This document shows positions 2,730-63,029 of a stretch of DNA of 64,000 nt, one piece after another; position 1 is the stretch's first letter; every line of letters starts with the position of its first letter. The position numbers were made by a program, and so were the translations under genes. The stretch covers positions 40,734,001-40,798,000 of the forward strand of contig OZ024743.1 in NCBI GenBank assembly GCA_964016885.1. Reading direction: 5' to 3'. The DNA comes from Eledone cirrhosa. Taxonomy: Eukaryota. Below the pieces are notes generated by a model, which was given only the letters and a program-made list of their open reading frames with translations, was not told the DNA's origin and did not search any database.

Positions 2730-4215
<1,486 letters not shown>

Positions 4216-4351
4216 ATATATATATACATATATATATATAGTAATAATAATAAATTTGAAGACTAAAATCCAAAGAGGGCTCGATAAGGATAAATATATA
4301 TCAAATATATAAGAACCGTAGAGCAAAAAATAAATATATATATATTTATTG

Positions 4352-4889: not shown

Positions 4890-4976
4890 ATATTACCCAC
4901 TTTACTACCCTAAGTATTGAGTACTTTGGTGCGTTATGGTCCATCGGCTTCCTTACCACATTTCCTTCGTTTTATA

Positions 4977-5031
<55 letters not shown>

Positions 5032-5498
5032 ATAATAATGATGGCTGCGCGTTGCAAATGGGGTGCATATGAAAAAGTAAGTCCTTCATCAGTGACCCTC
5101 CAACCGTCCCAGGCATTTCATCGCTTTAAGGGCCATATACCTCAGGTTGGTGCGAACAACGGCTAAAAAAAGTCGTTGGGACACGTAAATAAAGGGGACG
5201 TTAGGGTAACAAACAAAATGTTTTAAGCAACGGAAAGTGAGAAGAAATAGACAAGTCCCAGATCTCTATGAATATAAACTCGGTGAAATCGTGAACAAGA
5301 GACAAAAGACCATCAAACCTGGTTGAAATGTGAGCAAGGAAGGAATTTCACACAAGTCTAACGGGGAGAAGAAGAAGAAGAAGAAGAAGAAGAAGAAGAA
5401 GAAGAAGAAGAAGAAGAAGAAGAAGAAGAAGAAGAAGAAGAAGAAGGGGTCTGGTCTACGAATTCGGTGAACATAAGTTTTGTGAAGTCGCAGACGAA

Positions 5499-5542
<44 letters not shown>

Positions 5543-5566
5543 TTGTATGTATGTGTGTTTGTATGA

Positions 5567-5872
5567 AAGCGGTGGATTTATGGTTAGGGAAATCGGCTCA
5601 CGATCGTCTCCTCTTGAGTTCGATTCCGGACGGTGCGCTGTATCCTTGAGCAAGACACCTTATTTCACGTTGCTCCAGTCCAATTAGCTGGCAAAAATTA
5701 GTTGTACCTGGAATTCGAAGGGCAAACATTGTCACGGCAAATCTCCCAGAGAACTTCGTTAAGGGTACGTATTTGTGTGGAATTCTCAGCCACTTGCACA
5801 ATAACTTCACGAGGAGGCTGCTCCGCTGATCGGATCAACTGGAACACTCGTCGTCGTAACTAACGGAGTGCC
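5567..5872 (+). mobile_element. tRNA-derived SINE with a CORE-like central domain
   Basis: Box B-like gagttcgattcc, then ccttgagcaagacacctt; degenerate relatives at about 8850-9120 and 48460-48740. Confidence 0.65.
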
Positions 5873-12154: not shown

Positions 12155-12200
<46 letters not shown>

Positions 12201-12205
<5 letters not shown>

Positions 12206-12647
12206 GATATTAATAAATGGAAACTATATTTATAAAACCATATTTATTTCATTATATATATTTCAAGGATACCAAGTTACATTATGGTATGCCTTCATCA
12301 GACAAAATACAATATATAACAGTTTTATAAATAGACATTCACGTACCCCTTTTAAAAATTGACCGTTGTTTTTGGAGGCCATCATGATACAAAACAACGG
12401 TCAATTTTTAAAGGGGTACGTCAATGTCTCTTTATAAAACTGTTATATATTGTATTTTGTCTGATGAAGGCATACCATAATGTAACTTGGTATCCTTGAA
12501 ATATATATAATGAAATAAATATGGTTTTATAAATATAGTTTCCATTTATTAATATCGTATATCTAATCCAAATATTTGTCGAGTGCTTTATATCAGTTAT
12601 AAAAATATTTGCTTGTTTTATCCCAACAATTTAAATAAAACTTTTGC
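12201..12647. mobile_element. Family A fold-back cassette: about 170-bp inverted arms, 18-nt loop, two hammerheads (12245-12309 minus; 12453-12517 plus) and a 3' tail
   Basis: Arms almost perfectly complementary; tattttgt-CTGATGA-aggcatacca...tggtatcctt-GAAA-tatata-TA-atgaaata; TA tracts on both sides. Confidence 0.9.
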
Positions 12648-18548: not shown

Positions 18549-18943
<395 letters not shown>

Positions 18944-19001
18944 TACTTTCACTTGTGTAGGACACCTCGGTTATTTTTCATATTGTAAAAAAAAACCTCA
19001 C

Positions 19002-19068
<67 letters not shown>

Positions 19069-19383
19069 TATATACATACATCTGTTCGATCATGAATACC
19101 ACGAGCTTGCCAGTCACGTAAGTCTGATATTTGATTTCATATTCATAGAAACACTTTAAATATTTAACGTTTGATTTGTCCAGGTGTATATTTCTCAACC
19201 TGTTAGTTCTTTCGTTACTTTGGTATTGTGTGTTAGATTTTGCCTACCACAATGTTCGATTTGTCAAGCTATTTAAACGTATGTTATTACTCTAAGGACC
19301 TACCTTATCGAGTGTTTTGCTAACTCATTATTTCATATAGTAGGCCGAATTTGCTTGCAAACCGCCAGATTATCCAATTATAT

Positions 19384-19440
<57 letters not shown>

Positions 19441-19442
<2 letters not shown>

Positions 19443-19950
19443 AACAATTAAGTTAAAAATGTACATCCACATATGTATACTGAAATACTAGTATGCATAT
19501 GAATACACACACGTATACATATGTAGATGTACCGAGTTTTTCACTGGTCACTTTACTGTGAGTGTCCAGCTATTCTGTATGTAAACACACAGACAAACCG
19601 GTTTTTAAAGTCATACTGGTTTTTGAGGAAACACCTTTCCTCTATTCTCCAGAAAGCTAGAAAGGCCGGAAGATAGGTAAATGTTGCTGATGAGTTGTAA
19701 CAACAACGAAACTAGTTCAATATTCCTTGTCTGGCTTTCTGGAGAATAGAGGAAAGGTGTTTCCTCAAAAACCAGTATGACTCTAAAAACCGGTTTGTCT
19801 GTGTGTTTACATACAGAATAGCTGGACACTCACAGTAAAGTGACCAGTGAAAAACTCGGTACATCTACATATGTATACGTGTGTGTATTCATATGCATAC
19901 TAGTATTTCAGTATACATATGTGGATGTACATTTTTAACTTAATTGTTTA
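19441..19950. repeat. Fold-back with about 220-bp near-identical arms and a 68-nt loop
   Basis: taaacaattaagttaaaaatgtacatcc... is the reverse complement of ...ggatgtacatttttaacttaattgttta. Confidence 0.92.
19681..19723 (+). ncRNA. Minimal type I hammerhead ribozyme with intact core, in the loop of the 19441-19950 hairpin
   Basis: atgttg-CTGATGA-gttg-taacaa-caac-GAAA-ctag-TT-caatat. Confidence 0.88.
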
Positions 19951-20021
19951 AGCGTCAGTCATACAAAAGTGAGTTACAAACGAAACGAAATTTAATTTCG
20001 TTTCGTTATTTGTTTTTATAT

Positions 20022-20135
<114 letters not shown>

Positions 20136-21126: not shown

Positions 21127-21262
<136 letters not shown>

Positions 21263-21263
21263 G

Positions 21264-21295
<32 letters not shown>

Positions 21296-21299
21296 TGCA

Positions 21300-22322
21300 A
21301 AAGGGATATTTAATTTGTTGATAATTCATCAAATATATATATTTATAACTGATTCGAAGCACTCGACAACTTTTCTGGAGTATAATATCAATGATATTAA
21401 TAAATGGAAACTATATTTATAAAACCATATTTATTCTATTTTTTATATATTTCAAGAGTACTGTAGTGACCTACATTCCGCGGGCTCACATACATTCTCT
21501 GTGCCTGATTTGGCTCAGCTCAGCTAATCAGCGCCAGTAGAAGAGGATGTATCCCTACGCGTTCTAAGGGAGAAATAGCCCGCAAAGATTTGAGGACGCC
21601 ACCACTTCCAGGCTGATGTTAATAAATAATGTAAAACCAAGCTAAAGTCGTTGTTGATATTCCAATCATATCTCTCTACTAAACCTGGTTCCTCGTGGCG
21701 ACATTACAACAACTTCTGAAATATACTTCTCCGCTAAATCTGGTGACGACACATCTTTCACCAAATTGGTGACAATATACCTCAACCAAATTGGTGACTT
21801 ATATATATAAACAAAGAAAACCATTCCTTTCCTTGAGTACCAACACTTTGGTACGCACTCATCAGATAAAATAGAAAGTTTGTTTAATATATTATAACTC
21901 ATAATTTAGATAAATATTATTTTTTAATTCTGGAACATATTCCACCATTCCTACAAACTGTTAATTCTTTTTAAATTCACGTAAATACAAGCTTTTCTTT
22001 CTTTCATTTCTTCTTCCTACGCATACATATATCCTAATAATTACCTAGCTTCTAAAAATAACTTTTTTTCAGCCCTATACCTCAACCTCATTTGCATATT
22101 CATCTTAATAATTTGAAATATGTGATTTTTCCTCTCTTTCCATTTACTATCCTGGAAAAACTTGAACGGTTCAGATCTCATTCCTGGTTATGTCAATATT
22201 GATAAAACAAATTTCGTATTTTATCTGATGAGTGCGTACCAAAGTTTTGGTACCCTTTAAATATATATAATAGAATAAATATGGTTTCATAAATATAGTT
22301 TCCATTTATTAATATCATTGAT
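21300..22322. mobile_element. Family A-related PLE 3' end with nested inverted pieces; hammerhead cores at about 21830-21875 (minus) and 22217-22278 (plus, GAAA mutated to TAAA)
   Basis: tattttat-CTGATGA-gtgcgtacca..tggtac; 21385-21455 is the reverse complement of 22250-22322. Confidence 0.75.
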
Positions 22323-22431
22323 CATGTATACTGTCAAACTGATATATTTCTGTTATGTCTTTTGCTTTGTTATTTCTGTCTACCTTTTACATATTCGCAT
22401 GTATCTATGCTATGTATGTATGCATATACAC

Positions 22432-22509
<78 letters not shown>

Positions 22510-26293: not shown

Positions 26294-26314
26294 GCATATG
26301 TATATATATATATA

Positions 26315-26591
26315 TAGAATAGAAAACGAAAAATCAGTGATGCATCTGAACTCAATTTATTGTGTGTTACAATTGTTTCGCCGCCGGACAGCTCGAGACG
26401 CGACCATTGTGTGGATCTGTCTGATTCTGAGAGAATCTGCTCCGACACCATTAGTCGTATCCGTCGAGCCTGCGGGTCCAGAATAACACAGATCCACACA
26501 ATAAACGCGTCGCGAGCTGTCCGCCGGGGAAACAATTGTAACACAATAAATTGAGTTCAGTTACATCACTGAGTTTTCGTTTTCTATTCTA
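26315..26591. repeat. Fold-back cassette with about 115-bp arms and a hammerhead 3' half
   Basis: tagaatagaaaacgaaaa / ttttcgttttctattcta; GAAA-caattg-TA-acacaat at 26530-26548. Confidence 0.85.
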
Positions 26592-26700
26592 TCATACTCT
26601 GCTCTGTAAGAGCATAGAGTGCTCAACCGGCATATCGCCTATGGAAGCATCTTAGCTACCACCAGACACACGCACACACATATACACAAACACACACACG

Positions 26701-34909: not shown

Positions 34910-34960
<51 letters not shown>

Positions 34961-34963
<3 letters not shown>

Positions 34964-35540
34964 CAGGAAAGAAGAGTGACACGGTTTGCTATACAAAAAA
35001 GGTTTTTAATCTCATTGCTGACAATTGTTTCTCTGAACTGGTAGGTCTAGAGATCGCTATCTGCTTATTTTAGCGTTACTCGATCGCCAATACAAAATTA
35101 TAACCAGTCAGTTCATCGGAACTTGCGAGAATGAAGAGAATATTCTCTTCATTCCCGCAAGTTCCGATGAACTGACTGGTTATAATTTTGTATCTCTTCA
35201 TTCTCGCAAGTTCCGATGAACTGACTGGTTATAATTTTGTATTGGCGATCGAGTAACGATAAAATAAGCGGATAGCGATCTCTAGACCTACCAGTTCAGA
35301 GAAACAATTGTCAGCAATGAGATTAAAAACCTTTTTTGTATAGCAAACCGTGTCACTCTTCTTTCCTGATTTATTATTACTCCAAGTGTTTACAACATAA
35401 GAATTACAGCGTACTCGCAGTATCACTATGGAAACGCCTTGTTGAGTCAAACTTAGCCAAGTGTTGATATCATCCACTACCCGGAGTACCATAACAGGAC
35501 TACACCTAAGTGGACTGTATATAACTATTATTTGTTACCC
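34961..35540. mobile_element. Fold-back cassette (arms 34961-35140 / 35193-35370, with a 50-bp tandem duplication at the apex) and a long-stem-II hammerhead variant
   Basis: CCGATGA (35213)-actgactgg...ccagttcaga-GAAA-caattg-TC-agc (to 35315); TA tracts on both sides. Confidence 0.8.
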
Positions 35541-36862: not shown

Positions 36863-37103
36863 CATATCGAGTAAAGTAGGACAACGCATATCATGTCACT
36901 GTCGGATAGTTGAAACTAAATCGGGTATAGAGTCATTTTAGGTGGAAACACTTGATTATCTATTTTTACAGCTCAAAGTGATATAACGCACGTTTCCTCT
37001 CGACTACTCTATCACAATATTAATGCGTTGAGGTGTTTTGCTGGATACCAAAACATAGTTTGACAATTCAATTTGACTATACGCTTCATCGACTTACCTT
37101 GTT

Positions 37104-37218
<115 letters not shown>

Positions 37219-37224
37219 TGCAGA

Positions 37225-37574
37225 GGTTATATTTAATTTGTTGGGATTCAACAAGCTTAAACATTTTTATAACTAATATAAAGCACTCAACAGAAGAGTG
37301 GAGTACACAATATATTAATAAATGGAAACTATATTTATAAAACCATATTTATTTTATTATATATATTTCAAGAGCGACCAAGGTAAATTATGGTGCGCTT
37401 TCATCAGATGAAATACAGATTTGTTTTATAAATAAATATTGACATACCGGGAAAAAACACAACCTCAACGGTTCAAATTTGAAGCGCACCATAATTTACC
37501 TTGGTCGCCCTTGAAATGTATATAATAAAATAAATATGGTTTTATAAATATAGTTTCCATTTATTAATATATTG

Positions 37575-38556: not shown

Positions 38557-41016
38557 CTGCGTGCGTCTGTGTGTATTTGTATGTTTGTGTATGTGCTTGT
38601 GTCTGTTCACATCGGTTAGACAAAATAAAAATAAAATGGAAACAAGTGTTTTTGTCGATATGATTGTCTACATCTGAGTCGTCCTCCTGTATGATCGGAG
38701 ACGAACGACTAAACCATTAAGAAAGTTAAACAATAAAAAGTGAAATATTATAATCGTAAAATCATAAAAAAATGAGTTGATGGAATGGGGTAAGAAAGAT
38801 ATTGCACAGGGAGTATTTTGGAACGCTATGTTACATGTACCGCTTAACTCCACCCCATGTGAAATTGTGGATTCGTTTTAATTTTCGATTAAGCCAAATG
38901 TTCTAAATTGTTGGTGAAGTGGGAATAGTGTAGTTGTTGTTCTTGTCCAAGGGTATTAGTAGCGTCAGAGAAAGAAATCCGATGGGAATTGTAACCTCAC
39001 TTTGAAAACAGCCTGATCTCAGCTATGACTCCCATATCGGCGCCTAACATTTTCTGGTGCATCAATTATTCATTAGCTTTGTTTAAGCAACCAAAATAAC
39101 TGACGCAATTATGTATCGAACGGCCAGCTGATGGGTTGTAGTTTCCAATAGGATGTCATATTAAAAAATTCATTATGAAGATACATATGCACACATACAA
39201 CATTTTTTAATGTATAATAAACACGTTTAGTCTCGCTGTGAGTATTTTAAGCTGTGATTACTAGCATAAACATATTTTTCTAGTATGCTTTCATAAACCA
39301 TATGTTTCCAATAGAATAAATTCAGCCATATACAATACGTTTACAAATAATAAGATACAATTAGTGCTCGTTGTGTGTTTTGTAAGCTGTGATCATGATA
39401 CAATTTCATCAGTATTCGGTGCTGGCGTACGGCAACCAATCAAAATCACATATCTACCGAACATAACTCCATGGAGAGGTAGCTATAACATGATCACAGC
39501 TTAACGCGTTTTGATATCAAATCATTTGAAACCAATTCTGGTTATAAGATACAAAAGGATTAATTATTATCATGTACATATTGATCTAAAAGCGTCCATC
39601 AAGCTCTTATATAAGAACCTTTATATTTAAAATTAAAGACAATATCTTTCATCAGAAATATAGAAGTAAAGCAGTAAAATCCTCAGAGTAAAACAAAATT
39701 CATGTATATTATACATGAATATGCATATGCGTCTGAATTGATTTCAAATATTTGTGCAGTGCCTTCCAGAAAATATATGATAATGACGAGTATCCGGTCG
39801 TTGAATAATGTCTCGCCCAACCGTGTCGGCATGAAAAAAAAAAACAAGCGATGATGCCGATAATGGGTTAAGCAGCATACACGTTTTTATTCGTATATTA
39901 CTGGTACGTTCTCTATCCATCCACGAAACATGAGATATATAATGATCTAAAGTGACTCAATTATATACGGGAGGGTAATTTTCCAGTTGCTTGCCAATCC
40001 AACTATCTTTCAATTGTGTGTGTGAGTGAGAGAGAGGCAGAGCGAGAGAGAAAGAGAGAGAGAGAGAGAGTGGGAGAGAGAGACAGAGAGAGTGAAGGGG
40101 AGAGCAAGATAGCAAAGATGAAGAGAAAATGAGATTTACTAGGAGGCTTTGTTGATAAAGTGCTTATGACGCTGGTGTTTAGAGTTATAACCTCTCGCAG
40201 TATATTAAAAGAAAACAGTGGCTGCAACAGAACATATGGGATCGAAATCGGAGCTTAGACAACAGCAACAATAATGGCTGTACATTACTTAATCAGTGTC
40301 ACTAATATGACTGTAATTCTAAAAAAGACAGAACACACGGTAGATATGTAGGAAGAAAAGGATGAGGCTGGGGTGGTGGAGGAGAAAAGAGAGAGGAGGA
40401 AGAGAATAATTAAGAGAGAAGAGAAGGGGGAGGAGTTCGAAGGGAAGAAGAGAATGTAAAATGGCTATAAGCACGCTTTTAACACGGCGTGTATTGAACA
40501 AGCGCTTGAAGGCCATTTCCTTTCAATTATACACGATTTAATGCCCATGGGAAAGGCATGAAACTAAAATGATCTCACTGCTTAGTCTTTTAAATAATAC
40601 CCCCGTGACTAGTCTATTGAAACTAATAATACGAGCAACAATATTAGAACCGATCCATTTATTAAAATTCTCTCTAAATCTTGAAATTAACAAACTGAAT
40701 TAGTAGTAACAATAAACAGTAAAAAATAATAATAAATACAGTTGTAATGAAACAACCCCCAGCAGCAAGAAGAGCAACGGCAACAGTAACTACTACCATA
40801 AAATCACAAACATACCATCACTATAATAACAGCAACAAAAACAAGGAAATAACAGCCACCATTATAACTACAACGTCAACCACCTTCACCACTTTCACAA
40901 CAGACACCCCAGCACCACTACCATAGTGATCACAACAACAATCACACAAACGACAATAACAATTACAGACACTAAAAAAAAAGCCTTCATAACAATCACT
41001 ACCAAAAACACAAAAA

Positions 41017-41830
41017 CTGCCACCAGCACCACCAGAAGCACCATCAGCACCAACACAACCACCATCAGCACCACCACAACCGCCATGAGCACCACCCCAA
41101 CCACCATCAGCACCAACACAACCCCCATGAGCACCAACACAACCGCCATCAGCACCACCACAACCACCATCAGCACCAACACAACCGCCATCAGCACCAC
41201 CCCAACCACCATCAGCACCACCACAACCACAATCAGCACCACCACAACCGCCATCAGCACCACCCCAACCACCATCAGCACCAACACAACCACCATCAGC
41301 ACCACCGCAACCACCATCAGCACCAACACAACCACCATCAGTACCACCCCAACCACCCTCAGCACCACCACAACCACCACCAGCACCACCAGAACCACCA
41401 TCAGCACCACCAGAACCACCATCAGCACCACCACAACCACCATCAGCACCACCACAACCACCATCAGCACCACCACAACCACCATCAGCACCACCCCAAC
41501 CACCATCAGCACCACCACAACCACCATCAGCACCACCACAACCACCATCAGAACCACCACAACCACCATCATCACCGTCACAACCACCACAACCACCACC
41601 ACAACCACCATCAGCTCCACCACAACCACCACCACAACCACCATCAGCACCACCACAACCGCCACCAGCACCACCACAACCACCATCAGCACCACCACAA
41701 CCGCCATCAGCACCACCACAACCACCACCACAACCGCTATCAGCACCACCACAACCGCCACCAGCACCACCATAACCACCACCACAACCACCATCAGCAC
41801 CACCACAACCGCTATCAGCACCACCACAAC
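41017..41830. repeat. 21-bp minisatellite (accaccatcagcaccaccaca), roughly 35-40 units
   Basis: Direct reading; gives stop-free TISTTTT / GGADGGC ORFs in several frames. Confidence 0.92.
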
Positions 41831-42399
41831 TAACATGACAACAACAACAGGTACCGTAATGACAACGACTGAAAGAGCAAGAGGAACGACCACAATATAT
41901 CCGACGTAATGAAAACGGCAACAGTTTCAATAGATTTATAAAAAGAAATGAAATAGTTGTTATATTATGTCGTCTGTTGCTTTGCTTGCTGCAGTTTATT
42001 ACTATTATTACTATTATTTACATTATTATTCTTTATTATTTCTACAAACTCTGGCAACACTTCAGTGGTCACCAGTTTCCAAAGATATTTTTATCATAGG
42101 AAAACAAAACAAATAAACAAAAAGACTACGAAGAAGAAAAAGAAGAAAATGTAGTAGAACATGGCTGACCAGTGTTGTCGTCACACATGAGTCAACATCG
42201 AACATTTATTGGCTGATTTCATTGATGACCAACATGAACGCAAATATGCTTCTCAAAGTTCATTTAATTGACACCTTCCGAATGTGATTTGAAGCTTGGA
42301 GAAACCAACAACGAGGGATAGTCTTCTCTAGTAAACTGTTCGCTGCTCTTAAACGTACATGGTTATACGATAGTCTCTGCAAGCTGAATAATTGAATTG

Positions 42400-48907: not shown

Positions 48908-49129
48908 TAAGGCAATTATTTCATTTACCAGTGGTTTCTTGAAAGTAAACACATTTTGCTTTCAATCATCAGAATGAAAAAATCCTGGCGTATTTATTGA
49001 CATTGGATTTTAAAAAGGTTTTTAAAATCCAATGTCAATAAATACACCAGGATTTTTTTCATTCTGATGATTGAAAGCAAAGTTTGTTTGCTTTCAAGAA
49101 CCCACTAACAAATGAAATAATTGCCTTAT
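48908..49129. mobile_element. Fold-back cassette with two hammerheads: intact on the minus strand at 48919-48979, mutated on the plus strand at 49057-49117
   Basis: Minus strand: tttcatt-CTGATGA-ttgaaagcaaa..tttactttcaa-GAAA-ccactgg-TA-aatgaaa; apex ttttaaaaaggtttttaaaa. Confidence 0.88.
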
Positions 49130-49666: not shown

Positions 49667-50185
<519 letters not shown>

Positions 50186-51061
50186 TATATATATATAACT
50201 ATATATACATATATATATACATATACCTATATATATACATATATAATTGGCACTAATAATCTATAGATGGTGCTAGTAGGAAAACAGATGCGTAAGTGTG
50301 TGTTGGTGAAACATAAATAAACACCAGGTCTGAACACAAATGAACTAAACTCCCACGGTCACTTTCACGCTCTCCACATCTCGCTCTATTATGAGCAAAT
50401 GGGTGTCCATGCGCTGACCGCCCCACGGCCCGGGCACACAGAATAGAACAGTTTCCCCGGTTTATGGTGTGGGAGAGACGCTGGAAAAGCAATTCCAGCA
50501 GATATTACCTCATTGTGTACAGCTTCTCTGTTAATATATTTATCAGCAAGTATATAAAGAGAAAGAGAGTTGAAAAACATAGAGAGAGACGGGGGAAGTT
50601 CTAAAAGTTGTGTGACAGTTATTGCATTATACCCGTTCTAACGCTACCATTAAATCTCCGGGTGGATATAACATTAAGATTAGATCAAAACATTTTCCCT
50701 TTGGGTGCTAATAGATAGGTTTTCTCTCTGTGTGTTATCATCTAAATACACAAGTTCATCATCGACCGAGTCGTGCATATTTATATGGGTGACTAAAGCT
50801 TTAAGAATGTCATGTACATGTCTCTCCTCGGGATACAAACGTATCAAAGAAACAGGAAAAGCAAAGTAATCCGAGAATATATTAAAGTACGAAAGCACAT
50901 GTGGGTAAGGTGAACTCATGATGCAGTAATTGAGGCGTTGTTGTTAATCAGGCCGTACCTTGAGTAAATTAAACCAAGCGACGTCCATTCCTCTCTAGGA
51001 CAGCCAATTACTTCCAGCGAAAAAGAAGGAAGAGAACTCAAATGTATATCTATCTATCTAT

Positions 51062-52065: not shown

Positions 52066-53055
52066 TTATTAGCAAGACATACCCGTTCCAAAGACCCTCA
52101 TGTATAGATAAGAAATGTATAACCTGTAAAATAAGCCCCCATATTAACTGTAAAACTAGAAATGTAGTGTATAGCATAAGATGTACGGAAGGACAATGTA
52201 GAAACAAAAAAATATAGTGTACATAGGTGAGACAGCTCGTAGTATAGGGGAACGAATAAATGAACACTGGCGAGACCTTCAAGATAATAAAGAATCATCT
52301 GTGCTCTACCAACATGCTAAGATAGAACACAGGGGTAGATTAGAGAACATAGAAATAAAAATAGAATCCACACACAGAAGAGATGCAATGTTTAGGCAAA
52401 TTACAGAGGCAGTAAGCATAAAATAATTACAACCAAAATTAAATAGAAAATATGAGTGGAACAGCAACATCACAACTTACAATTAAGGACAAAATGAAAA
52501 CACACACAGGACAGAATGAAAACACACACACACATAGAACAAACAACTTACAATTAAGGACAAAATGAAAACACACACAGGACAAAATGAAAACACACAC
52601 ACACATAGAACAAACAACCAACCAACAATAAATAAATAAATAAATAAACAAATAGATAAATGAACACAAACACACACAGACACCCGGACGTGGCGCATGC
52701 GCAAACCGAGCACACAACACACACACAGAAACAAAATGGCGTAGGATAGAAGAAAGGAAAGGCACAGAAACAAAGAAAGGAATCCCCAGTCACTGAAGAG
52801 GTCACAGAGTGTGTGACGAAAGGACTATGACTATATATAAACAACTATCTGGTTGTGGAACCAACCAACCAACCAGAAATGTTTAAGTTTGTAGATTTGT
52901 AAATTTATAAATTTATAAATATATAATAAATTGAAGTGAAAGTAACTGGTGCGTGTGTTTCTTATTGGCAACATGACCCTCCCAGAGTATAACAATATCG
53001 GTTTCAACACACGATTTCAGATAAAGAATCTTGCTAAACAAATTCAGAAACGAGA
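52066..53055 (+). mobile_element. 5'-truncated Penelope-like element: Cys-rich linker, GIY-YIG endonuclease pseudogene, 3' UTR and pLTR (family B)
   Basis: CIDKKCITCK..NCKTRNVVYSIRC / VYIGETARSIGERINEH...RQITEAVSIK*LQPKLNRKYEW; one frameshift and one stop; TA-rich flanks. Confidence 0.9.
52788..52832 (+). ncRNA. Hammerhead ribozyme in the PLE pLTR (family B)
   Basis: agtca-CTGAAGA-g-gtcaca-gagtg-tgtgac-GAAA-ggac-TA-tgact. Confidence 0.75.
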
Positions 53056-53056
53056 T

Positions 53057-53117
<61 letters not shown>

Positions 53118-56569: not shown

Positions 56570-58465
56570 TTTTCAGACGTTTGCCGTCTCCCTTTGCACC
56601 TCCATCAACTGTCACCAACTCCAAACGTACTTCATTGCCTCTTAGGTGACTTTTAAGTCCAGCATAAGATTTGCACGGTCTGCAGCATATGAGACAGACA
56701 GAAGATGTGCCCTCTATTGGATTGATTCGATCAGTTTGTGGGATGTCATCCTTATGTACACTCATATGCATTTTCAGACCAGAGATTGATTTGTAGATAT
56801 TTTGCACACCACAAATGTTTAGCTTTAGGTCAAAGATCCTTCCCGTAGTTCTAACTGACAATAGAACACCCTTTGGACATTCCTGAAAGGCATGATGTGG
56901 CATCACAGCAAAATATATAAAAAAAGTGTGTGAGCCGAGATATCTCCCTGCTTCCCGCCATTGTCAACTGGGATTTCATTGGACAATTCTCTATTCAAGA
57001 CAACCCGAGACTTCATATATCTCTGCAGTTGGTGGGCACCCCATTTTCCATGATATTTTCTACAGTGGACCTCTGTTCACCGTACCAAAGGCCTTTGTCA
57101 GATCAACAAAAAACCTGATACAGAGGAACCCACTGTTCAATACAATTCTCCTGTCTCTGCCTTGCAGGGAAGATCATATCAATTGTCCCTCTACCAGATT
57201 TAAATCCACTTTGTGATTCAAGGATTAGTGTAGGACAAATGTCTTCCATCAACTTGTTCAACAATAATCTAGCAAGATCTTTGTATACAGACTCCAACTG
57301 AGTGATGCCACGGTAGTGATCGCATATTCCTTTATACCCTTTACCTTTAAACAAGGTCACCAAGATACCATCTATCCAATCTTGTGGCATACGAACTCCA
57401 GCCCAGCACTCTGCGATGAGATGGAGTATTGTTTGTGTTATGTTCGTATTACCAACCTTTAACAATTCCACAGGGATTCCATCTGATCCAAATGACTTAC
57501 CCGTGTTTAACTGGTTGATGGCCATTTTAACCTCATTATAATCTGGTAATCGAACCATTTTAAAATTTACAAAGACATTGGGGCATGCCATCTAGCACAT
57601 CATGATTAACAGATGATGGATTATGAAATAAATCAGTAAAATTTCTTGCCAGCGCTTAAGGATATTCTATGATTCCTTGATGATGGCACTGTCATCTTTG
57701 GACATTATGGGAACAATAGACGAATTTGTTGGACCATATACTGCGCGCAAAAGACTATAAAACAGTTTGGAATCTTTTGAGTTATAACCACTTTGAATAT
57801 CTTCAGAGATTTTCAAACACCATTTATTTTTAAACCTTCTCAGCTCGCGTTGTAATGTGGCTTCATATTATTTATATGTCTTTTTAATAGTAGTTAAATT
57901 CGTAGGGCACTCTTCCAGAATCTTTTCATGAAGAGCATGTTTTTTTCTTTAATAGTTAGTTGATAACCAGATTATTGTCATGCAATACGTCTTTATGTTG
58001 TCTTTTCGACCTGAATCCAAGTTCTTCTGCTCCTGCATTATACAACTGATCCGTGAAGTTTAACCACGTTCCAACGAAATCAATATTATTCAAACGTTTA
58101 CCCAAAGCATCACGTACCTCTTGTTTTAACTTTCCAACACCAATAAGCTTCAGTGTTTTTATTTCACACGTACGAGATTTTTTTTCCGAATACATAATGT
58201 AATCTTCCCCCAAATGATGTTATGTTCCGTGTTGCATTCTGCATTAAAGATGACGCACACATTAGAGATATCATTTTACCTTGGGTGTACCTAGATAACT
58301 TTATGCTTCTTCTTTTGGGGGAAGAATGTATTGCAAATTGGTAGGTTGAGTTCCGAACAGAGCTCAAGCAGCTTCAAACCGTGCAATAATCAAACCGTCA
58401 AACCGATGCAATAATGGCCTAGTGCATCCCGTGTGTCAGGGTCTCTGTCAACTTGGGCATTGAAA
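56570..58465 (-). mobile_element. Decayed RTE (BovB-like) LINE: APE end, RT N-terminal half, internal deletion, C-terminal C2H2 fingers
   Basis: FNAQV..LKLLELCSELNL..CNTFF; GKSFGSDGIPVELLK..YRGITQL..ESQSGFKSGRGTIDMIF; CLICCRPCKSYAGLKSHLR. Confidence 0.9.
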
Positions 58466-58790: not shown

Positions 58791-60338
58791 AGCACTGGGG
58801 AGATCAGGCGGCTGTTTGAGACAGAGCCCTTCACCAGAGAGGAGCTTCAGAGAGCCAAGAAGAGGATCAAGGAGGGCAAGGCTCATGGAGAAGATGGAGT
58901 GGCATTAGAGGTGATGAAGAGGTGTGATTTTGATGATATCATCCTGGGGTTCTGTAACGGGGCACTGGAGAAAGGAGTTTCCCGAATCAGTGGAGGATCA
59001 GTAACATCGTCCCAGTGCCAAAGAAGGGAGATCTCTCTAACACCAACAACTACCGGGGGATCTCACTGACGTCACTTGTGGCAAAAACCCCCAACAGGAT
59101 GATTCTTAACAGGATCCAGCCTTGATGGAGAAGAAGCTCAGGGACAACCAGAACGGCTTCAGAGAGGGTAGATTAACAACCAGTCACATCTTGATGCTGA
59201 GGAGGATATTAGAGGGAGCTAGAGCAAAGTGCCTTCCTGCGGTTATGGTTTTCATTGACTTTAGGAAGGCCTTTGATTCTGTGGACCGTTACTGCCTGAT
59301 GAAGATGTTACAGGCTTATGGAATCCCCAAGAAGATAGTGGACCTGATATCACTGCTCTACACCAACACCAAAGCCAAAGTCATTACACCTGATGGGATG
59401 ACAGAGTTCTTTGAGATACTGGCTGGAGTGCTCCAGGGAGATACATTGGCTCCCTACCTTTTTATCATCGTAGTGGACTATTGTATGCGCCTTGCACTGG
59501 AGAAACACCAGGACTCTGGCTTTACTGTAGCACCGGCTCAGAGCAGGGGAGTTAGGGCGAAAAAGGTATCGGATGCTGATTTTGCCGACGACATAGTTTT
59601 GGTGACAAATACAGTGAAGGAGGCAGAGGATTTGATGCGGGAGGTTGAGACTGTGTCGATGAGTGTGGGGCTGAGAATGAATGAGACTAAAACAAAATAT
59701 CTGGTGGAGAATGTTGAGAAGCCAGAGGGGATCACTAATGTAGGCGGGAGGCCGCTGGAATTGGTTGAGGACTTCCTGTATTTGGGAGCAAAGTTGGGAA
59801 TACGGAAGATGATGTGGTTGAGAGGAAGAGCAAGGCCTGGGCGGCGTGCCACAGCTTGAGATCGGTGTGGAAGTCGGACCTTCGTAGAGTCCTGAAAATT
59901 CGCCTCTTCATTGCTGTAGTGGAGTCTGTGCTGCTGTATGGGTCTGAGACTTGGACACTGACCAAGAAACTCACTCAGTTGGTGGATGGGTGCTACACGA
60001 GAATGCTGAGGATGGCTCTGAACATTAATCAGTATACACTGAGGATGAAAAACTCAGAGCTGTATGGGAGCATCCCAAAAGTCAGCTCAAAAGTGACACA
60101 GAGGAGACTGAGGTTAGCTGGACATGCTCACCGACATCCAGAGTTGACATTGCACTCAGTACTCCTTTGGGAGCCCCTACATGGACACACTAGAAGTGGA
60201 AGACCGAGGTTAACGTATGTTGATGCCCTAAGGACAGACACTGGTCTTTTGGAGATGCAGGACATGGCAGCGATAATGAGGGACAGAGACCGCTGGTGAG
60301 AACTCGTCCATGGATCTCGGGAATTTTACCCGCCTTAG
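58791..60338 (+). mobile_element. 5'-truncated, relatively young RTE LINE with complete RT domain and about 3 frameshifts
   Basis: PVPKKGDLS..NYRGISL, NQNGFR, FIDFRKAFDSV, GVLQGDTLAPYLF, DFADDIVL, ESVLLYGSETW, RLRLAGH; ends directly in (AT)n. Confidence 0.95.
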
Positions 60339-60359
60339 ATATATATATATATATATAGG

Positions 60360-62222
60360 AATGTAAAATGGCGTGTTGTGTTGTTGCATATGTGATATAC
60401 AAATTAAAATGAAGAATTAGAAATAGAAGCCAGGACTATCCAGCATTGGTATTTCTTCGCCTTATAGACCAGATACCTCAAGCTAGCGCGAACAATAACT
60501 AAAATAAGTTAATGGGATAAAAAGAATTGGGTGCAGTAAGAGAGACAGGTAAACAAACACGAATGGTGAGGCAACGTAAAGAGAGGAAAAACTGAGAAAA
60601 TCAAGTCAATAATTCATTTGAACATAAGAACTAGCGAATATTGACGAGAAGACGAAAGACACATCTTAACCGTGCGAAAGTAAGCGAGGAAAGAATTTCG
60701 CACGGTGTGGGGCGATGGGGGGAGTGAGAGAGAGGGTGAGTAGCACTGCAACATCACAGCACGACATTTTTCATTTCTATATGCTTTCCCCTTCGCTGTG
60801 ACCTTTCTTTTTCTCCTCCCTTACTGCTATCCTCTTTCTCTCTCCCCCTTCTCTCTTCTTCTCCCTCTTACTTTCCTTCACCCCCTCTGCTAGTCACCTT
60901 CTCTCGGCTAGCCCCTTCTACACTCTTTCACTCACTCACTCTCTGTTACTCACCCTCTCTCTCACTTCCTCCATCGTCCCACACCGTGCGAAATCCTTTG
61001 TGCATTCCGGAGGCTGAGTGTGTATATGTGGGGATACGCTCATGTGTGTTTGTGTTTATACGTGGTGTAGAAGTAGGTGGCGTGGTTCGAAAAAAATGTG
61101 AGTGTTTGTTCGTGGGTAAGTTCTCTAAGGTAGTTCCGTGGAGTGTGCGATAAGATGTTTGATATTTCTCATGTTATAGAGTGGATAGCTGGAACGATGA
61201 CCGAGGGTGTGGAATCCATTAGTGGTGGTGGTCGGAAGTGGAGAGGTGTGGGGTGCGCGCACAACAGGAAGTGGTCAGAGGGTCAAGGCAGGGTGAAGAG
61301 ATAGCAGTAGAGGAGGATGACAGGTGGAGAAATAGTCTGTATGTGATGAGGACTGTGTGTCTGTGTGTGTGGAGGTGCGGTGGACAGGGGAGAGGATGGG
61401 TAGGTGTGAAAGGTGGAGGGGGAAGGTAGTGATGTGGGGGGATGGGGTGTATATTAGTAGAGGTGTTAGTGGGATGTGTGTGAAGGGGTGTAGTGGAGCG
61501 GGGAGAGGGAGAGAAAAGGTGTTGGGGACGGATGAGGGAGTGTAGTGTACTGGTGTGTGTGCGTGTTTGGATGAGTGTGTGTGTGCGTGCGTGTTTGCAT
61601 GAGTATGTGTGTGGTAGAGTTAGTATTACTGGTGGTGGGGAAAGGGTTGAATGCGGGTGTGTTGGTGGGGGTTAGTGGGGTTGGGTGTGTGAAGTGGGTG
61701 GTGTACGTAGGTGTGCGTGGGTGTAAGCGTGTTGGTTGTATGGGTGCGCGGATGTTAGGGGGAGTGGTGGGGATATTAGTATTGTTAGTTGGGGGTGGGT
61801 CGGCCAAGGGGGCGGGACGGTGAAATGAATGTGTGTTTTAGTGGTGTTAGTGGGGGATGTGTGGGGGGAAAGGTGGGTGGTCTAAGGCTAAAGGAATTGG
61901 AGGGGGAGTTCAGGCCGGGCGGTGTGTGGGTCTGTAGCGTGAAGTTGGTATGTTGTTCAATCGTGACGCGGGTGGCGGGTGTTCCATGACATTGGAGTAG
62001 GCCACAGACTGTGAGGTGGTGGGCGAAATGTCCAGGGGAGCCAAAGTGGTGGGCGATGGGGAAACTGTCGCAGAGACGAATATCCTGGAGGTGTTCAGTG
62101 AAACGGTCCGCCAGGCAACGTCCAGTCTGTCCGACGTAGGTTGCGCTGCACTCCGTGCAGCTAAGTCCATAGATTAGGTTGCGAAGTTTGCGCAATCTCC
62201 GCACCCTCCTCGTCAAAACATG
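60360..62222 (-). mobile_element. 5'-truncated Penelope-like element: GIY-YIG domain (about 62222-61905) and a long C/A-rich 3' region
   Basis: RNLIYGLSCTECSATYVGQTGRCLADRFTEH...PIAHHF...EQHTNFTLQTHTPPGLN; 3' boundary inferred. Confidence 0.8.
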
Positions 62223-63029
62223 TGAGGATAGTGTGGCAGTCACTTCGAAGTTTCATATATTGTTTATTTTGATATGATATATATTTTTGTATGTTCGCAG
62301 ATATAAATAGAACGAAAAGGATAATATATACAAAAGATATGATCATGTCGAATGTTACGTGATACAATCAAATACAAATAGACAGGACATATACATATAT
62401 TTCAAGTTGTCTATCTAAATATTTATCTATCTATCTCTATTGGTATGTATATATGAATCTATCTATCTATCTATCTAACTCCGTCTCTATATATACATAC
62501 ACGCACCCACACCTAAACAAACACACATACACACACACACACACAGATATACATATATATATAACACCAACAGACACACGCATATATATATATGTACACT
62601 CGCACACTTAATCTTTACACAAACGCACGCGTGTGTGTTCTTTTTTCTGTCCGAAAGTGAATAAGAAGCAATTGATATTTAACGAGCGGTCGTTGTGTTC
62701 AATCGAAATTGACCTCTCAATGCACCATTTTCTTGCCTATCTTACCATTACATAAATAGACCAATGAGAAAATAGACGCACGCAACATATTTTCATGAGA
62801 AATGACACTTTTATGCATATTATTTTCTCTTCCGTCTAACGCCATGCTATTTTTTACCTGAAGGATAATATTTGTCGATACATGTGTTCGTCTCTGTCTC
62901 TGTTTCTCCCCCATCCTCTCTCTCTTACTCTCTCTCTTTCTTTCTCAGTCTCTCTCTCTAAATGTATATATATATGTATGTGTCTGTGTGTGTGTGTGTT
63001 TGTTCGTGTAGATGAATATGTATATATAT

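What the first reader, a model, noticed from the sequence alone, without database searches (positions are those of the whole stretch)
19441..19950. Intact minimal hammerhead in the loop of a 220-bp near-perfect hairpin
Here the ribozyme (19681-19723) lies in the single-stranded 68-nt loop instead of the arms, so it could fold in a plus-strand transcript. Cleavage would open the loop and leave a long dsRNA duplex. Near-identical arms suggest a recent origin. Any function is inference.
Basis: partly seen in the sequence, partly recalled or inferred. Interest (0 to 1): 0.75.

Follow-up and report, generated by a model that had tools for sequence, protein, structure and literature searches.

The report
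Retrozyme copy with Penelope insertion footprint
The hairpin is real, but it is one of over two thousand insertions of a 466-base repeat with a hammerhead self-cutting RNA motif, likely pasted in back-to-back by a Penelope-type jumping-gene enzyme, and the ribozyme's place in the loop is what chance gives, so this copy is likely inert while the family records how such elements likely insert.

Summary
Hairpin and hammerhead confirmed. The locus is one insertion of a 466-nt tandem hammerhead repeat (non-LTR retrozyme); 2,058 exact element/(TA)n junctions in the own genome. Anatomy: duplicated target | inverted block (unit 233 to 17) | forward block (406-466, 1-302) | duplicated target. The two ends are fixed about 70 nt apart: 78 of 95 closed insertions seeded on the long end carry the short end opposite, none two long ends. 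That is the Penelope inverted-copy-plus-tail footprint. A lone hammerhead in the loop occurs in 5 of 62 insertions, 4.5 expected from random block lengths. This copy has one ribozyme with a 1-bp palindromic helix III (dimer type) and lacks the conserved promoter-like block, so it is likely inert. Near-identical arms are the family norm (median 0.5% within, 9.2% between insertions). The helper element was not identified; no read spans the hairpin. This scan had already noted the same footprint in other repeat families of this genome.

The parts
19379..19440 (.). Left copy of the target-site duplication, an interrupted TA microsatellite with 23 TA units between its CA marks
   Evidence: same collapsed pattern on both flanks, 7 informative letters; shuffled flank pairs reached 6 letters in 0 of 5 rounds
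19441..19657 (-). Inverted block: unit positions 17-233, ending at the family's 'short' 3' end (228-233)
19657..20019 (+). Forward block: unit positions 406-466 then 1-302, ending at the 'long' 3' end (300-302); joined to the inverted block at 19657 with 1 nt overlap, inside the natural stem that closes the ribozyme domain
19662..19729 (+). 68-nt loop: the part of the forward block that the inverted block does not reach
19680..19724 (+). Type I hammerhead, short palindromic helix III, GUU triplet, predicted cut after 19717
   Evidence: core nearly invariant and helix II covarying across 88-90 insertions
19734..19950 (+). Right arm: unit positions 17-233 of the forward block
19951..20019 (+). 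69-nt tail present on one arm only (unit 234-302)
19979..20007 (+). Stem-loop inside the tail, between the two fixed ends; inferred enzyme-binding site
   Evidence: a sister family 67% alike has a stem-loop at the same place
20017..20062 (.). Right copy of the target-site duplication (15 TA units; first 3 nt shared with the element end)

Best explanation
The hairpin is a single, young insertion of a 466-nt tandem hammerhead repeat (a non-LTR retrozyme) into a TA microsatellite, likely made by a Penelope-like (PLE) reverse transcriptase-endonuclease that primed cDNA from both cut target strands, and the ribozyme lies in the loop only because one cDNA ran past it and the other stopped short. Shown: the family, the two fixed ends about 70 nt apart, the back-to-back blocks, the target duplication, the chance rate of the loop position. 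Inferred steps: (1) an array with the promoter-like block is transcribed and the hammerheads cut as dimers, giving monomers or circles; (2) the enzyme makes staggered nicks 46-62 nt apart in (TA)n; (3) one 3' end starts at unit 300-302, the other at 228-233, on either side of the tail stem-loop, with 0-3 bases of pairing; (4) both cDNAs copy the same RNA or RNAs of one source, reading through cut sites; (5) their ends are joined by little or no overlap and filled in. This copy lacks the promoter-like block and a second ribozyme, so it is likely a dead end; if read through by a host transcript it would form a long duplex like most other insertions.
For: Tandem 463-466-nt arrays; unit folds far better than shuffles, z -10.5; 2,058 long-end/(TA)n junctions, control 0. 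78 of 95 closed insertions (100 examined, 5 ran off the fetched stretch; two of the 78 are one duplicated locus) have the short end opposite, 0 the long end; from the other side 14 of 20 short-end loci have the long end opposite. Inverted block is the longer one in 32 of 62, so neither block is a fold-back copy of the other. Arms differ by median 0.5% within and 9.2% between insertions; 14 private variants sit on both arms in 10 of the 49 insertions scored (48 plus the window). A sister family 67% alike has the same layout. A young PLE family here (777-aa frames, 150 of 150 scored endonuclease hits identical) also has two ends in (TA)n, about 35 nt apart: 18 long, 8 short, 1 tandem, 3 other of 30. 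PMC8557442 (passages) describes inverted 5'-truncated copies with a tail at one end; PMC11167929 (parts 1-2 of 4) shows a PLE protein cutting and extending both strands from two RNA start sites that define the tail.
Against: No helper found: the unit has no sequence match to the ends of the two PLE families examined, and its tail is 69 nt against the 30-40 nt in print. Asymmetry is not absolute: 2 of 20 short-end loci have two short ends (one simple, one four-block) and 4 have no inverted block; 17 of 95 long-end loci lack the short end. Informative target duplications are seen in only 3 of 95 at 6 or more letters (most flanks are pure TA). 50 private variants lie on one arm only, and arm-to-arm gene conversion could also make shared ones. 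No ligation scar at the cut site (polymorphic in 2 of 69 insertions), so circle and long uncut transcript are not told apart. The sample is the first 100 exact matches on one contig, not random.
Confidence: 0.85

Rival explanations
1. The locus is a functional ribozyme-gated hairpin RNA: a + transcript cleaves in the loop and releases a long duplex for small-RNA or editing pathways.
For: Helices I and II are predicted to form in the loop. One low-depth contig of run X5 (kind not on record) has six T>C changes within 15 nt, where 0 of 367 genomic pieces have two or more: a weak hint of edited duplex RNA from the family, not from this locus.
Against: Loop position at chance rate; promoter-like block absent; single hammerhead with 1-bp helix III, GUU triplet and the rare G at helix I (family A in 280 of 282 pieces); a second insertion has nearly the same junction.
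Confidence: 0.06
2. One cDNA is made by ordinary target-primed reverse transcription and the inverted arm arises afterwards by fold-back or template switching on that cDNA, or by later recombination between arrays.
For: The window's junction lies in a natural stem of the unit; several junctions overlap by 8-37 nt; arms share private variants.
Against: Fold-back predicts the copy is never longer than its template and ends at the same site; the inverted block is longer in 32 of 62 and ends at its own fixed site.
Confidence: 0.06
3. The inverted arm is an assembly or read-chimera artefact.
For: No contig or read spans the hairpin in the 4 runs laid.
Against: The arm ends at the family's fixed short end, is flanked by a target duplication whose copies differ in TA length, and differs from the other arm at 19608.
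Confidence: 0.03

Closest known systems
Metazoan non-LTR retrozymes (Cervera and de la Pena 2020, PMC7229834, passages; Li, Clavereau and Pollet 2026, bioRxiv 10.64898/2026.07.22.740005, parts 1-3 of 5)
   Same: Protein-free tandem unit with one type I hammerhead, low GC, strongly self-paired, thousands of copies, PLEs in the same genome, PLE mobilisation proposed.
   Different: 466 nt is above the 170-400 nt of the 2020 paper but inside the 51-972 bp of the 2026 preprint. In the parts read neither describes back-to-back blocks with two fixed ends ('inverted' 0 hits in PMC7229834). The preprint links retrozymes to pLTR sequence; here no pLTR match was found.
Penelope-like elements with inverted copies and tail (Craig et al. 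2021, PMC8557442, passages; Frangieh et al. 2024, PMC11167929, parts 1-2 of 4)
   Same: Inverted 5'-truncated block joined to a forward block, tail on one end only, microsatellite or AT-rich target, start sites beside a stem-loop.
   Different: No ORF; tail 69 nt rather than 30-40; blocks run through up to 15 or more short units.
LINE-1 twin priming (recalled; search gave no paper on PLE twin priming)
   Same: Both target strands prime cDNA, giving an inversion.
   Different: In L1, as recalled, the second primer starts at variable internal sites and the two pieces do not overlap; here both start sites are fixed and the pieces overlap, which makes the hairpin.
Newt and axolotl satellite hammerheads (PMC7229834, passages)
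   Same: One-base-pair helix III capped by a palindromic tetraloop; cut well only as dimers.
   Different: Different sequence; loop-loop contacts not tested here.

Membership tests
Non-LTR retrozyme | Short head-to-tail tandem unit, no LTR, no protein | tested here: met
   463-466-nt arrays; no ORF of 150 aa over the window copy
Non-LTR retrozyme | One type I hammerhead per unit, conserved | tested here: met
   11 core positions vary in 2 of about 980 calls; helix II positions 444/455 switch together (T 42/A 41, A 47/T 49), against 6% variation in the body
Non-LTR retrozyme | Highly self-paired unit RNA | tested here: met
   -161.6 kcal/mol, z -10.5, 0 of 100 shuffles as good
Non-LTR retrozyme | Self-cleavage | not testable with these tools
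   Only folding energies
Non-LTR retrozyme | Expressed as circular RNA | tested here: inconclusive
   Runs X4 and X6 each hold one contig of unit length plus 30 (495, 496 nt), a closed loop that a circle or a perfect array would give; run kind not on record
Non-LTR retrozyme (active copy, two or more consecutive hammerheads) | Two ribozymes in cis in this copy | tested here: not met
   One hammerhead in the window insertion; 40 of 94 closed insertions have the octamer and two or more on one strand
PLE-mobilised element | Inverted 5'-truncated block plus tail at one end | tested here: met
PLE-mobilised element | Sequence shared with the pLTR of an autonomous PLE | tested here: inconclusive
   No match in 30 + 30 loci of two PLE families; other families not examined
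Autonomous PLE | RT plus GIY-YIG ORF | tested here: not met
   None in the element
min-HHR of PMC4209133 | No helix III / loop 3 | tested here: not met
   ACUAGU palindrome present

The most novel reading that the evidence does not exclude
A dimeric Penelope-type enzyme grips one retrozyme circle at the tail stem-loop and copies it round and round from two fixed starts into both ends of a staggered break, while each unit carries its own U6-like promoter block; the family would then be a self-promoting circular SINE of PLEs whose insertions are mostly ready-made long RNA hairpins, and thousands of junctions give a direct readout of the unresolved second-strand step of PLE transposition.
Probability: 0.4. 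Interest if true: 0.65.

Novelty: new member of a known kind. Interest (0 to 1): 0.38.

Why it matters
The locus itself is ordinary. The family matters modestly: PLE mobilisation of animal retrozymes is proposed in print but rests on co-occurrence and pLTR similarity; here the insertions carry the PLE footprint itself, with a strong long-end/short-end asymmetry and arms from one source. That names two start sites and a stem-loop that can be tested with a purified PLE protein. It also means 50 of 78 two-block insertions could form 200 bp or more of duplex if read through. The scan has noted the same footprint in other families of this genome, so this is one more case.

Tried and rejected
Ligation scar at the cut site: not seen (2 of 69). 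Enrichment of 5' ends at the cut site: not seen (7 of 124, 4.8 expected). Helper search: the very abundant PLE family matching the window's endonuclease fragment and the young family beside L104 share no sequence with the unit; a search with the sister element returned nothing. Reads across the hairpin: none in 4 runs. My first geometry count (5 of 77) missed the window itself by one base of BLAST overshoot; it was redone (5 of 62 full two-block junctions; one duplicate locus dropped). A regex count missed degraded hammerheads and is not used for the loop rate. One locus was fetched on the wrong side (L102) and refetched (L190). Rfam microRNA hits are generic hairpin matches far below gathering. 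Tail stem-loop conservation (1.6%) is partly built in by the seed pattern and is not counted as evidence. Literature searches for this layout or an internal promoter in retrozymes listed nothing that describes it; supplements were not read, and bioRxiv supplements are closed, so they may bear on novelty. Search of earlier notes by this sequence: nothing.

Full report
Observation. The inverted repeat is as described: arms 19441-19661 and 19730-19950, two mismatches, 68-nt loop. A structural scan of both strands finds a type I hammerhead at 19680-19724 (+) with a 7-bp helix I, 5-bp helix II, palindromic ACUAGU and a GUU triplet, cut after 19717; Rfam HH9 matches at 36.1 bits, under its gathering score. 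The window lies in a 3.0-Gb, microsatellite-rich eukaryotic genome; I did not determine the organism.

What it is. Searching the own genome with the arm and loop returned head-to-tail arrays of period 463-466 nt on many contigs. With unit position 1 set just after the cut site, the window reads: TA tract | positions 233 to 17 inverted | positions 406-466 and 1-302 forward | TA tract. The forward block is the natural sequence; the left arm is a second, inverted copy. The element ends at 20019, 69 nt past the right arm. The flanks repeat one CA-interrupted TA pattern (23 units left, 15 right), a target duplication of 46-62 bp. The unit folds far better than shuffles (z -10.5). Across 88-90 insertions the catalytic core is nearly invariant and one helix II pair switches between U-A and A-U, while the body varies by 6%. 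This fits the non-LTR retrozymes of PMC7229834 (passages read) and bioRxiv 10.64898/2026.07.22.740005 (parts 1-3 of 5 read).

The footprint. An exact 24-nt pattern for the end at position 302 followed by TA has 2,058 matches, control 0. I fetched the first 100 listed, all on contig C1. Of these, 5 ran off the fetched stretch; of 95 closed ones, 78 begin with an inverted block ending at 227-234 (66 long enough to align, 12 of only a few bases; two of the 78 are a duplicated locus), 8 have only a forward block, 9 are other, and none has two long ends. From the other side, of 20 short-end loci chosen for lacking a listed partner (one chosen because it looked symmetric), 14 have the long end opposite, 4 no inverted block and 2 a second short end. 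A sister element 67% alike shows the same layout and keeps the hammerhead, a tail stem-loop and the octamer block. A young protein-coding PLE family in this genome, with the CX4CxxC motif that PMC8557442 gives for Neptune and Nematis, also ends at two sites in (TA)n about 35 nt apart, and two inverted pairs (L244/L245, L251/L252) carry one of each. PMC8557442 (passages) describes inverted truncated copies with a tail at one end as typical of PLEs; PMC11167929 (parts 1-2 of 4) shows both strands cut and extended and two RNA start sites bounding the tail.

Mechanism (inferred). Each block's outer end reads as cDNA extended from a target 3' end, so both nicked strands primed. The inverted block is the longer in 32 of 62 junctions, which a simple fold-back cannot give. 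Arms of one insertion differ by a median 0.5%, arms of different insertions by 9.2%; 14 private variants lie on both arms in 10 insertions, while 50 lie on one arm only (49 insertions scored, window included). So both arms come from one RNA or one source, though conversion between arms could add to this. Junction overlaps are mostly 0-5 nt. 5' ends are not enriched at the cut site (7 of 124, 4.8 expected) and blocks run through many units (up to 7,279 nt), so the template is a circle or an uncut multimer; no ligation scar separates the two. The helper was not found.

Is the loop position special? No. A single whole hammerhead left in the loop of a stem of 100 bp or more occurs in 5 of 62 insertions (2 forward like the window, 3 mirror); shuffling block lengths gives 4.5 +/- 1.5. 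A second insertion on C7 has almost the same junction.

Is this copy likely active? Helices I and II are predicted to form in the loop, but helix III can hold only one pair as a monomer; the active monomer is +0.8 kcal/mol against -6.8 for a misfold, the active dimer -15.2 against -17.4 for the best co-fold (secondary structure only, so weak). PMC4209133 and PMC7229834 (passages) report that such motifs cut well only as dimers. The window has one hammerhead. Following a lead from earlier notes, I found that positions 335-384 vary by only 1-2% and open with a 14-nt exact match to the upstream region of one U6 gene; 2 of 15 U6 loci have the same octamer at -76/-77, 5 a one-base variant, 8 none. 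The octamer appears in 93 of 5,000 shuffles. Against a Pol III reading: spacing to the TATA-like box is 35 nt against 38-39, and the unit has T5 runs. The window copy lacks this block altogether.

RNA evidence. Two runs under other organism labels hold one closed-loop contig of unit length plus 30, and one contig of run X5 shows six clustered T>C changes absent from 367 genomic pieces. Run kinds are not on record and depths are low, so these are hints only, and they concern the family.

Verdict. Real hairpin, real hammerhead motif, ordinary origin: a likely inert insertion of a new retrozyme family bearing the PLE footprint. New member of a known kind; the same footprint was noted earlier by this scan in other families (unchecked notes, not counted as support).

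Noticed in passing
window 12197-12565: Another hairpin with a different hammerhead in both arms (12245-12309 -, 12453-12517 +); relatives at 2628-2692, 21244-21456, 22186-22506, 37098-37448. Same back-to-back layout, another family.
   Followed up: no
window 3254-4219, 2885-3365, 52668-53115: Inverted pair with small CUGAAGA hammerhead-like motifs at 3261-3303 (-), 4170-4212 (+) and 52788-52832 (+).
   Followed up: no
window 48919-48979 (-): Lone hammerhead with 7-bp helices I and II and a 4-bp helix III.
   Followed up: no
window 34958-35374, 49669-50245, 18648-18945, 26314-26592: Further long fold-back repeats without a hammerhead hit.
   Followed up: no
window 61785-62252 (-): GIY-YIG end of a very abundant PLE family (23,824 first-look candidates; open frames to 987 aa) with its own small hammerhead.
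   Followed up: partly
window 59110-60299 (+), 57103-57591 (-): Reverse transcriptase fragments of LINE type (Pfam RVT_1).
   Followed up: partly
L104:1356-3695: 780-aa RT plus endonuclease frame of a very young PLE family; no hammerhead found in 1.5 kb after the ORF; two 3' ends about 35 nt apart.
   Followed up: partly
L226 about 4950-5750; also left flank of L042: Sister retrozyme-like element, 67% alike, same two-end layout.
   Followed up: partly
L260-L270: Tandem array of about 30 U6 genes on contig C19 with two upstream types, one with a variant octamer and one without.
   Followed up: no
L052:630-1561 against runs X4, X6, X21: The unit occurs as one closed-loop contig in runs under other organism labels, and is absent from X21, a sister run of X4's sample; contamination, a related species or a free circle were not told apart.
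   Followed up: partly
window 40821-42017: Long 21-nt-type repeat with open frames on both strands, Thr-rich on +.
   Followed up: no
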